Positions 26,680 to 27,021 of a stretch of 31,309 nucleotides of DNA are shown here, piece after piece. Source of the DNA: a virus (lineage: Duplodnaviria; Heunggongvirae; Uroviricota; Caudoviricetes); IMG/VR virus record IMGVR_UViG_2534681697_000027, positions 1 to 31,309 of that record. The stretch is one strand, 5' to 3'. The translations under genes and the position numbers were made by a program. The notes below the pieces were generated by a model. The model was not told the DNA's origin. It did no database searches and was given only the letters and a program-made list of their open reading frames with translations. Positions within the stretch are counted from its first letter, which is position 1. Each line of letters begins with the position of its first letter.

Positions 26680-26737
26680 GGAAATAAACAACAAAAAACC
26701 CGCCGAAACGCTGAGAGATCACAGCGATGGGCGGGTT
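26680..26737 (-). terminator. Rho-independent terminator downstream of hok
   Basis: 8-bp stem AACCCGCC/GGCGGGTT around a structured loop, followed on the minus strand by T6. Confidence 0.45.
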
Positions 26738-26812
26738 AAGTGCGGGTGCGTTGAGGATGCCTGACACATCAGAGGTGGGCGGGGATGGGATCAGCTCCCC
26801 GCCCGGTCACTC

Positions 26813-26968
26813 TTACTTCCTGGATTCGTAGTCTACGAAGACAGCGACCTCCGTCTGGCCGGTTCGGATTCGTACCTCACAGAGGTCTTTCCTCGTTACC
26901 AGTGCCGTCACTATGACGGTTAAACAGATGACGATCAGGGCGACTAACATCGCCTTTTGCTGCTTCAT
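26813..26968 (-). CDS. Hok/Gef-family type I toxin, 51 aa
   Basis: MKQQKAMLVALIVICLTVIVTALVTRKDLCEVRIRTGQTEVAVF... near-identical to recalled HokD/RelF; AAGGAG ribosome-binding site upstream. Confidence 0.85.
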   Translation of the reverse strand: MKQQKAMLVALIVICLTVIVTALVTRKDLCEVRIRTGQTEVAVFVDYESRK

Positions 26969-27021
26969 AGCCTGCTTCTCCTTGCCTTCCGGCACGTAAG
27001 AGGCTAACCTACATGTGTCTA

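What the first reader, a model, noticed from the sequence alone, without database searches (positions are those of the whole stretch)
26680..27021. hok-family toxin gene with an IS5-family element 51 bp upstream of its start codon
An intact 51-aa Hok/RelF-like frame with its ribosome-binding site and downstream terminator is present, but copy B of the IS5-family element occupies the leader from 51 bp upstream of the ATG. Any promoter, mok-type leader frame or sok-type antisense locus is therefore displaced or destroyed. Chromosomal hok loci are known to be commonly silenced by nearby insertions, and this looks like another instance. The toxin frame itself is undamaged and could be reactivated by read-out transcription from the IS.
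Basis: partly seen in the sequence, partly recalled or inferred. Interest (0 to 1): 0.5.

Follow-up and report, generated by a model that had tools for sequence, protein, structure and literature searches.

The report
IS-split prophage hok toxin remnant
An intact gene for the small membrane toxin Hok, carried by a decayed prophage of a Shigella boydii-type genome, has been cut off from its own promoter, leader and antitoxin RNA by an ISSfl7 insertion sequence that landed in codon 2 of the leader frame mok; this is a familiar way for chromosomal hok loci to be disabled, so the finding is real but ordinary.

Summary
Window 26813-26968 (-) encodes a 51-aa Hok (Pfam HOK_GEF, E 2.6e-23). It is 49/51 identical to the experimentally toxic HokW. 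It has an AAGGAG ribosome-binding site, an fbi box and a terminator. A 916-bp ISSfl7-like IS5-family element (27022-27937) starts 53 nt upstream of the ATG, or 51 nt if the duplicated TA is counted.

Related genomes show the event exactly. The IS entered a CTAG in mok codon 2 (ATG-CTA-GAC) with a TA duplication. Removing it in silico restores, base for base, intact alleles in other genomes.

The insertion separates hok from its promoter, tac element, mok start and Shine-Dalgarno, and from 66 of the 71 nt of Sok. None of these is in the window. Here the far IS flank is an acyltransferase/integrase prophage remnant. That join is an IS-IS recombination product (about 673 kb inversion relative to CP026875.1), or possibly an assembly join.

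hok is most likely a silent orphan. This is a new instance of a known phenomenon, of low interest.

The parts
26813..26968 (-). hok toxin ORF (51 aa plus stop), hokD/hokW type
   Evidence: Pfam HOK_GEF E 2.6e-23; 49/51 identical to HokW; the identical protein is annotated 'Hok/Gef family protein [Shigella]'.
26978..26983 (-). hok Shine-Dalgarno AAGGAG, 9 nt before the ATG
   Evidence: Read; conserved in all intact alleles.
26969..27021 (-). Remnant of the mok leader frame: the TA of codon 2 plus codons 3-19, in frame with hok. The mok ATG and Shine-Dalgarno are missing.
   Evidence: Alignment to the annotated mokW of 933W and to intact alleles. The intact Mok translates as MLDTCRLASYVPEGKEKQA+Hok.
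26982..27017 (+). Intact sok promoter: -35 TTGCCT 26982-26987, 17-nt spacer, -10 TAACCT 27005-27010, inferred start G at 27017. It now reads into the IS.
   Evidence: Same hexamers and spacing as 933W sokW, whose annotated 5' end maps to this G. The -10 is identified by the promoter-less mutant primers YO-421/422 in PMC8621323, and the sokW clone with its own promoter starts at the hok ATG. The relaxed scan finds it at 7/12.
27017..27021 (+). 5-nt stub of Sok RNA (GTCTA). The remaining 66 nt of the 71-nt Sok are not in the window.
   Evidence: 933W sokW is 71 nt. Searches for leader/Sok sequence in the window gave 0 matches.
27020..27021 (.). TA target-site duplication, hok side (target CTAG in ATG-CTA-GAC)
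   Evidence: The reconstruction with a single TA matches L011 and L016 exactly.
27022..27937 (+). ISSfl7-like IS5-family insertion sequence, copy B. orfA is 27082-27531 and orfB is 27411-27926; the frameshift is probably at the A7 run near 27428.
   Evidence: Pfam DUF4096 and DDE_Tnp_1; NCBIfam NF033580 split over the two ORFs; 99.9-100% identical to RefSeq 'ISSfl7 family' elements.
27938..27939 (.). TA at the other IS end. It belongs to a different original target, in the acyltransferase-side prophage.
   Evidence: The same acyltransferase-side junction appears in L004, L005 and L007.
26744..26756 (-). fbi (fold-back inhibition) box CCUCAACGCACCC, complementary to the absent 5' tac element GGGUGCUUGAGG
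   Evidence: Duplex of the intact-allele tac with this 3' UTR is -27.6 kcal/mol; 10 of 500 shuffled tacs did as well. Conserved in intact alleles.
26693..26737 (-). hok intrinsic terminator (GC stem plus U6)
   Evidence: Fold.
26813..27073 (-). 86-aa ORF that extends the mok/hok frame 35 codons into the IS end. It is probably a chance open frame.
   Evidence: There is no Shine-Dalgarno before either ATG. A 35-codon stop-free run has a chance probability of about 0.2. It was called as a gene in CP026875.1.
27940..29472 (-). Foreign far flank: AT-rich remnant of a serotype-converting-type prophage, with an acyltransferase gene (28369-29472) and its terminator (28342-28365). It replaces the hok leader.
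   Evidence: Pfam Acyl_transf_3; terminator scan; no match in 5,426 E. coli genomes. In CP026875.1 the same flank is joined through an ISSfl7 to a P22-type tailspike.
7719..8634 (-). ISSfl7-like copy A, a simple insertion in a prophage gene. It is not involved in the hok rearrangement.
   Evidence: 915/916 identical to copy B. Its reconstructed empty site is contiguous at 99.8% in 85 E. coli genomes.

Best explanation
This is the toxin half of a prophage-borne hok/mok/sok type I toxin-antitoxin locus of the hokD/hokW type. It lies next to rem and the Q-antiterminator region of a lambdoid prophage remnant.

Shown:
- An ISSfl7 element transposed into the CTAG formed by mok codons 1-3 (ATG-CTA-GAC) and duplicated the TA.
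- The insertion site is in the apical loop of the hairpin that holds the mok start, and 5 nt downstream of the Sok RNA start.
- It splits the locus. The hok promoter, tac element, Sok target, mok Shine-Dalgarno and ATG, and 66 of 71 nt of Sok lie at one IS end. At the other end lie mok codons 3-19, the sok promoter, the hok Shine-Dalgarno and ORF, the fbi box and the terminator.
- In this window the promoter/leader half is absent, and the far IS end abuts an unrelated acyltransferase-integrase prophage remnant.

Inferred: homologous recombination between two inverted ISSfl7 copies, about 673 kb apart in the closely related complete genome CP026875.1, inverted the interval and carried the leader half away.

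Inferred function:
- hok is transcriptionally and translationally orphaned, and therefore silent. That is why loss of Sok is tolerated.
- The sok promoter now makes a chimeric RNA that runs into the IS in the transposase sense.
- A 10-bp leader hairpin that buries the orfA start codon probably blunts any effect of that read-in on transposition.
- The event is recent, because there is no sequence divergence from intact alleles.
For: Hok identity: Pfam HOK_GEF E 2.6e-23; 96% identity to the toxic HokW (toxicity in PMC8621323).

Precise insertion: L008 (CP026875.1) and L019 (IMG/VR) carry '...CAATTTCATGC-TA[IS]TA-GACACATGTAGG...'. The intact allele ATGCTAGACACATG is present in E24377A, L011, L013 and L016. 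A 660-nt in-silico excision product matches L011 and L016 exactly, and the 462-nt hok side has 0 mismatches to them. All five ISSfl7 copies seen are flanked by TA on both sides, and the original target reads CTAG in four and TTAG in one.

Loss of the leader: Rfam RF01794 scores 96-117 bits on intact alleles and 18.5 bits (E 0.19) here. Leader motifs are absent from the whole window.

Sok promoter retained: it matches the 933W sokW annotation and the mutagenesis primers of PMC8621323.

mok dependence: mok start-codon and Shine-Dalgarno mutations abolish Hok translation in R1 (PMC9841398).

Rearrangement: the window is 100% identical to L003 over 8.9 kb. The same acyltransferase-IS junction is joined to a tailspike gene in CP026875.1, and the two IS copies there are inverted at about 2.299 and 2.972 Mb. 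Copy A is a simple insertion.

No promoter-like site above background reads toward hok, and there are two terminator-like sites upstream on that strand.

Precedent: K-12 hok loci are inactivated by IS elements, point mutation or rearrangement.
Against: Silence is inferred, not measured; no expression data exist here.

hok keeps a good Shine-Dalgarno of its own. K-12 hokD, which retains only 17 nt upstream of its ATG, and the bare hokW ORF are toxic when transcribed, so any incoming transcription could in principle yield toxin.

The mok/hok frame stays open for 35 codons into the IS, with two ATGs.

The acyltransferase-IS-hok join is documented only in the window and one draft contig (L003). 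It spans a 916-bp repeat, so an assembly chimera cannot be excluded.

The Sok start is taken from a GenBank annotation and a figure legend, not from mapped 5' ends in this strain.
Confidence: 0.82

Rival explanations
1. hok is still expressed. Transcription enters from the IS (an outward or hybrid promoter) or reads through from the co-oriented acyltransferase gene. The 86-aa IS-mok-hok frame acts as a substitute leader ORF that couples translation into hok. The remnant would then be a live, differently wired toxin gene.
For: The acyltransferase, the IS antisense strand and hok are co-oriented. The frame is open from an ATG at 27073 through mok into hok and was called as a gene in CP026875.1. 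The hok Shine-Dalgarno is intact. Weak 8/12 promoter-like sites occur at 27065-27036 and 27217-27190 on the minus strand.
Against: No promoter-like site reaches the scan threshold on that strand within the IS, and overall counts equal the shuffled expectation. Terminator-like sites at 28365-28342 and 27515-27496 lie upstream. Neither ATG of the extension has a Shine-Dalgarno. A 35-codon open stretch is expected by chance about 1 time in 5. Without Sok, constitutive expression of a toxin 96% identical to HokW should be counter-selected.
Confidence: 0.08
2. The insertion has been functionally co-opted. The captured sok promoter drives ISSfl7 transposase expression. Alternatively, its long chimeric RNA acts as a surrogate antisense that destroys any read-through hok transcript crossing the IS.
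For: Psok is intact and oriented in the transposase sense, 65 nt upstream of the orfA ATG. Any hok-sense RNA entering through the IS would be fully complementary to this transcript (geometry). Sok-type promoters are constitutive in the R1 paradigm (established knowledge).
Against: The orientation has a 50% prior. The predicted leader hairpin (27043-27052 with 27079-27088) buries the orfA ATG in transcripts that start outside the IS, which is the usual IS defence against read-in. The allele is confined to a few near-identical genomes. Divergence is zero, so there has been no time for selection to show.
Confidence: 0.06
3. The acyltransferase-IS-hok adjacency is an assembly artefact across a repeated 916-bp IS. 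In the real chromosome the hok leader/sok half sits at the far IS end, as in CP026875.1, so the locus is a simple insertion without inversion.
For: The only other record with this join is a draft contig (L003), which is 100% identical to the window. The complete genome CP026875.1 and an IMG/VR contig have leader-IS-hok. Those strains differ from the window by less than 0.1%.
Against: The contig is 298 kb and spans several other IS copies without breaking. Recombination between inverted IS copies is common in Shigella genomes (established knowledge). The predicted product of such an inversion matches the window junctions exactly.
Confidence: 0.2

Closest known systems
hokW-mokW-sokW of Stx2 phage 933W / Sakai prophage Sp5 (PMC8621323; GenBank AF125520)
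   Same: Same family and subtype. Hok is 49/51 identical. mok is in frame with hok. The sok -35, -10 and spacing are the same, as are the fbi box and 3' UTR architecture, and both are prophage-borne.
   Different: 933W has the full locus and scores 113.5 bits on Rfam RF01794. The window has only the part downstream of mok codon 2. 933W reads ATGCTGAAC at the mok start and so lacks the CTAG target.
E. coli K-12 hokD (relF) in the Qin prophage, downstream of relBE
   Same: Orthologous position (rem-hokD next to the Q region). The Hok ORF is intact but stripped of promoter, mok, tac and Sok by a rearrangement (Pedersen & Gerdes 1999 as cited).
   Different: In K-12, homology to intact loci stops 17 nt upstream of the ATG, so the sok promoter is gone, and hokD is co-transcribed with relBE. 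Here the break is 53 nt upstream at a defined IS end, Psok is retained and there is no upstream operon.
IS-inactivated chromosomal hok loci of E. coli K-12 (hokA, hokC/gef, hokE)
   Same: An insertion sequence lies close to but not inside the toxin ORF and disables the locus. That IS150 and IS186 are the elements involved is from my own recollection of Pedersen & Gerdes 1999.
   Different: A different IS (ISSfl7, IS5 family), a different host lineage (Shigella boydii-type) and a prophage-borne locus. The insertion point is resolved to the base, inside mok codon 2 and Sok +5, and is followed by IS-mediated rearrangement.
hok/mok/sok (parB) of plasmid R1
   Same: This is the paradigm used to interpret the parts: tac/fbi fold-back, mok-coupled hok translation, and Sok antisense over the mok translation start with its promoter inside mok (PMC9841398).
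   Different: R1 Hok is only about 44% identical to HokW. In R1, mok is read in a different frame from hok (my recollection). R1 is plasmid-borne and fully functional.

Membership tests
[quoted passage not shown] | Small hydrophobic toxin ORF with the Hok/Gef domain | tested here: met
   PF01848 E 2.6e-23, 81.8 bits against a cutoff of 22; NCBIfam Hok subfamily E 3.7e-15, though below its curated cutoff; 96% identical to HokW.
[quoted passage not shown] | Overlapping leader ORF mok with its own Shine-Dalgarno and start codon | tested here: not met
   Only codons 3-19 remain. The ATG and Shine-Dalgarno lie beyond the IS in L008 and L019 and are absent from the window.
[quoted passage not shown] | cis-encoded antisense Sok RNA gene (promoter plus about 70-nt body complementary to the leader) | tested here: not met
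   The promoter is present (26982-27010), but only 5 of 71 nt of the body remain. Rfam RF01794 scores 18.5 bits against a gathering score of 59.
[quoted passage not shown] | hok promoter and 5' tac element | tested here: not met
   GGGTGCTTGAGGCTATCTGC gives 0 matches in the window at up to 3 mismatches.
[quoted passage not shown] | 3' fbi element and terminator | tested here: met
   fbi at 26744-26756 pairs with the tac of the intact allele (-27.6 kcal/mol). Terminator fold.
[quoted passage not shown] | Toxicity of Hok and neutralisation by Sok | not testable with these tools
   Shown experimentally for the 96%-identical HokW/sokW (PMC8621323), but not for this protein.
IS5-family insertion sequence, ISSfl7-like | DDE transposase of the IS5 family, here split into two ORFs by a frameshift | tested here: met
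   Pfam DUF4096 and DDE_Tnp_1. NCBIfam NF033580: orfA covers positions 2-112 and orfB 112-257 of 258.
IS5-family insertion sequence, ISSfl7-like | Terminal inverted repeats and target-site duplication | tested here: met
   Terminal inverted repeats of at least 16 bp, GGCTGTGTCCCTTAAT. All five copies examined are flanked by TA on both sides, and the original target reads CTAG in four. In-silico excision restores the intact allele.
IS5-family insertion sequence, ISSfl7-like | Sequence identity to the named element | tested here: met
   99.9-100% over 916 bp to RefSeq features annotated 'IS5-like element ISSfl7 family transposase'. The ISfinder reference itself was not available.
IS-disabled chromosomal hok loci (Pedersen & Gerdes class) | Intact toxin ORF with an IS adjacent that disrupts regulation or expression | tested here: met
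   Structure shown; the class is described. The loss of expression itself was not tested.

The most novel reading that the evidence does not exclude
The retained sok promoter has been captured by the insertion sequence. It fires 5 nt outside the IS end, in the sense of the transposase. It could therefore (a) act as an external driver of ISSfl7 transposition, contributing to this element's expansion in the lineage, or (b) produce a long antisense RNA that replaces Sok by silencing any hok transcript that enters through the IS. Either would be a re-wired TA remnant rather than a dead one.
Probability: 0.06. Interest if true: 0.5.

Novelty: new member of a known kind. Interest (0 to 1): 0.2.

Why it matters
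The value is mainly for annotation and bookkeeping. It shows that this 'hokD' call is an orphan toxin ORF without mok start, Sok or promoter, so it should not be counted as a functional type I TA system.

It documents, to the base, one more route by which chromosomal and prophage hok loci are disarmed: a CTAG-seeking IS5-family element hitting the CTAG that some alleles carry at the mok start.

It also marks an ISSfl7 copy that has served, or appears to have served, as a substrate for a large chromosomal rearrangement in a Shigella boydii-type genome. The retained, re-aimed sok promoter is a small curiosity that could be tested cheaply.

Tried and rejected
1. Inversion between the two IS copies within the window, which would put the hok leader next to copy A. 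Rejected: neither flank of copy A resembles the leader, and copy A's reconstructed empty site is contiguous in 85 E. coli genomes.

2. The leader or Sok body elsewhere in the window: 0 matches at up to 3 mismatches.

3. Using the TA duplication in the window to decide between simple insertion and recombination. Uninformative, because every copy is flanked by TA.

4. Exact junction searches. There were 0 hits in GTDB representative genomes, 0 in metagenome contigs, no junction-spanning hit in 5,426 complete E. coli genomes and 1 IMG/VR contig. The allele is therefore rare and lineage-restricted.

5. The far flank 27940-29500 against E. coli genomes: no match. The reconstructed acyltransferase/tailspike empty site against phage records: no match. 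Removing the IS from L004 does not restore one continuous tailspike ORF. The ancestral state of that side therefore rests only on gene order.

6. The idea that a CTAG at the mok start is a conserved hotspot. Rejected: 933W, FDAARGOS_943, L012 and L014 lack it.

7. The standard terminator scan did not report the hok terminator because its loop exceeds 8 nt. It was established by folding instead.

8. The organism name could not be read from the accessions. It is inferred only from the source name of the identical acyltransferase, 'Shigella boydii ATCC 9905'.

Full report
**Observation**

The minus strand of 26813-26968 encodes MKQQKAMLVALIVICLTVIVTALVTRKDLCEVRIRTGQTEVAVFVDYESRK.
- It matches Pfam HOK_GEF over the whole model (E 2.6e-23).
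- It is 49/51 identical to HokW of phage 933W/Sp5. HokW arrests growth when induced and is neutralised by sokW RNA (PMC8621323).
- AAGGAG lies 9 nt before the ATG.
- The 3' UTR folds into a hairpin just after the stop codon and a GC-rich terminator followed by U6 (26737-26693, z -4.1).
- Upstream, the 916-bp element at 27022-27937 has terminal inverted repeats of at least 16 bp and two overlapping ORFs that together cover an IS5-family transposase model.
- RefSeq labels 99.9-100% identical copies 'ISSfl7 family'.
- A second, inverted copy at 7719-8634 differs at one base.
- The gap between the hok ATG and the IS end is 53 nt, or 51 nt if the TA is counted with the IS.

**What was hit**

933W carries an annotated mokW/hokW/sokW. 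Aligning it and intact E. coli alleles with the window shows that homology stops exactly at the IS. I then looked up the 86-aa ORF that runs from inside the IS into hok. This found CP026875.1 (locus L008), where the same IS-hok junction is present and the other IS end reads '...CTGAGGCCAATTTCATGC-TA'.

Several genomes carry the uninterrupted sequence ...TTTCATGCTAGACACATGTAGG...: E24377A and L011, L013 and L016. Joining the L008 leader side, one TA and the window's hok side gives 660 nt that match L011 and L016 exactly. The window's 462-nt hok side has no mismatch to them.

So ISSfl7 inserted into the CTAG of mok codons 1-3 (ATG-CTA-GAC) with a TA duplication, and it did so recently. All five copies examined are flanked by TA on both sides, and the original target reads CTAG in four and TTAG in one. 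In the Rfam RF01794 structure the target lies in the apical loop of the hairpin that contains the mok start.

**What is lost and what is kept**

RF01794 is named 'sok' but models the 157-nt hok leader strand. It scores 96-117 bits on intact alleles and 18.5 bits (E 0.19) on the window, where only the last 50 or so positions align.

Missing from the window are the hok promoter, the tac element, the Sok target, the mok Shine-Dalgarno and ATG, and the Sok body. Searches for leader motifs gave no hit anywhere in the window.

Kept are mok codons 3-19, the hok Shine-Dalgarno and ORF, the terminator, and the fbi box CCUCAACGCACCC (26756-26744). The fbi box is complementary to the absent tac GGGUGCUUGAGG.

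- In 933W the annotated 71-nt sokW starts at the G that corresponds to window 27017.
- Takada et al. built their promoter-less mutant by changing TAGGTTA on the hok strand, which is TAACCTA on the sok strand. Their self-expressed sokW clone begins at the hok ATG (primers YO-421, YO-422 and YO-406).
- The window has the identical -10 TAACCT (27005-27010), the same -35 TTGCCT (26982-26987) and 17-nt spacing.

Psok therefore now fires 5 nt outside the IS end. It reads into the IS in the transposase sense, with the orfA ATG at 27082.

**The far flank**

Positions 27940 onward are AT-rich. They encode an acyltransferase (28369-29472, minus strand) with its own terminator, followed by a phage integrase. 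They have no counterpart in 5,426 complete E. coli genomes.

The identical acyltransferase is named 'Shigella boydii ATCC 9905' by its source. The window's last 8.9 kb are 100% identical to contig AERN01000081.1 (L003).

In the closely related complete genome CP026875.1 the same acyltransferase-IS junction is joined to a P22-type tailspike (L004). The hok locus lies about 673 kb away with its own ISSfl7 in the opposite orientation. Recombination between those inverted copies predicts exactly the junctions seen in the window.

I therefore read the window as an inversion product in which the leader/sok half has been carried away. One caveat applies. The join spans a 916-bp repeat and is supported only by the window and one draft contig, so an assembly chimera remains possible (I give it about 0.2). 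Either way hok is separated from its leader by at least the IS.

Copy A plays no part in this. Its empty site is contiguous in 85 E. coli genomes.

**How it most likely works now**

In the R1 paradigm, hok is translated only when mok is translated up to the hok Shine-Dalgarno. Mutations in the mok start codon or Shine-Dalgarno abolish Hok production (PMC9841398). Here the mok start is gone, and so is the promoter.

On the hok-sense strand upstream I find the following:
- No promoter-like site above the shuffled background; only 8/12 matches appear in a relaxed scan.
- Two terminator-like sites, at 28365-28342 and 27515-27496.
- An in-frame 35-codon extension of the mok/hok frame into the IS that lacks any Shine-Dalgarno. 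Its chance probability is about 0.2.

I conclude (inference) that hok is a silent orphan, which also explains why losing Sok is tolerated.

The Psok transcript entering the IS is predicted to fold a 10-bp hairpin (27043-27052 with 27079-27088) over the orfA AUG. This is the usual IS protection against read-in, so I do not expect a strong effect on transposition. These functional statements are untested.

**Comparison with what is known**

The locus belongs by descent to the hokW/hokD prophage subtype. As it stands, however, it fails three defining features of a hok/sok system: the mok start, the Sok gene and the hok promoter/tac.

The closest precedent is K-12 hokD (relF) in the Qin prophage, at the orthologous rem-hokD position. 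There, homology to intact loci ends 17 nt before the ATG.

[quoted passage not shown] ISSfl7 has already been reported to interrupt genes in S. boydii (PMC4374849).

The specific allele is rare. It was found in CP026875.1, one IMG/VR contig and the window/L003. It was absent from GTDB representatives, from metagenome contigs and from complete E. coli genomes.

**Verdict**

This is a real feature, correctly spotted and essentially correctly interpreted. It is a new instance of a known kind: an IS-disabled chromosomal hok locus. My additions are the base-level insertion site, the retained and re-aimed sok promoter, and the IS-mediated replacement of the upstream half.

Interest is low (0.2). The only mildly novel possibility is that the captured sok promoter has acquired a role for the IS or as a surrogate antisense; I put that at about 6%.

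Noticed in passing
window 11656-13112 and 21391-22847: Two direct copies of an IS110-family element (DEDD_Tnp_IS110 plus Transposase_20, 398-aa transposase), 99.86% identical over 1457 bp. They bracket about 8 kb that includes a TrkH/TrkG-type cation transporter gene (18615-20090, minus strand) and phage lysis genes. The pair could form a composite unit or a deletion/duplication substrate.
   Followed up: partly
window 367-1700: IS3-family element (HTH_21/rve ORF at 781-1686), 99.85% identical to a copy in locus L004. It is another sign that the region is IS-riddled.
   Followed up: no
window 24644-24842 (-): Rfam hits to isrK (77.8 bits), C4 antisense RNA (68.7 bits) and its a1/b1 targets (52.9 bits). 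They lie between the DUF1133/Q-like gene and an ORF6N (antirepressor-type) gene, forming a P1/P7-style C4-regulated module in a lambdoid late-control region. L008 has two such modules.
   Followed up: no
window 23517-23827 (-): Prophage-borne cluster of four tRNA genes: Gly-UCC, Thr-UGU, Arg-UCU, and a CAU-anticodon tRNA that RefSeq annotates as Ile in the related E. coli locus.
   Followed up: no
window 27043-27088 (+): A 10-bp inverted repeat in the ISSfl7 leader (GAGCTATAGT / ACTATGGCTC) pairs over the orfA start codon in transcripts that begin outside the element. It probably protects against read-in activation, including from the captured sok promoter. The overall fold z-score is only -1.3.
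   Followed up: partly
window 26828-26830 (-), Hok codon 47: The Tyr47 codon sits in a GAC-TAC-GAA context. TACG is the TadA A-to-I editing motif reported to recode Tyr to Cys in the hokB mRNA (codon 29), with a similar phenomenon reported for hokC, hokD and hokE at position 46 (bioRxiv 10.1101/2025.08.07.668861). The motif is intact here.
   Followed up: no
window 28012-28341 (+): A 109-aa ORF with no Pfam hit lies between the acyltransferase and the IS, where the 3' end of the P22-type tailspike of L004 would continue. After in-silico removal of the IS it is in a different frame from the tailspike ORF, so it is either a frameshifted tailspike tail or a spurious ORF.
   Followed up: partly
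L008 575-1490 and L019 6103-7018 (related loci): In CP026875.1 and in the IMG/VR contig, a further ISSfl7 copy sits only about 1.6 kb upstream of the hok leader, in the opposite orientation to the one in mok. The leader/ORF6N segment is thus bracketed by inverted IS copies and is prone to further rearrangement.
   Followed up: no
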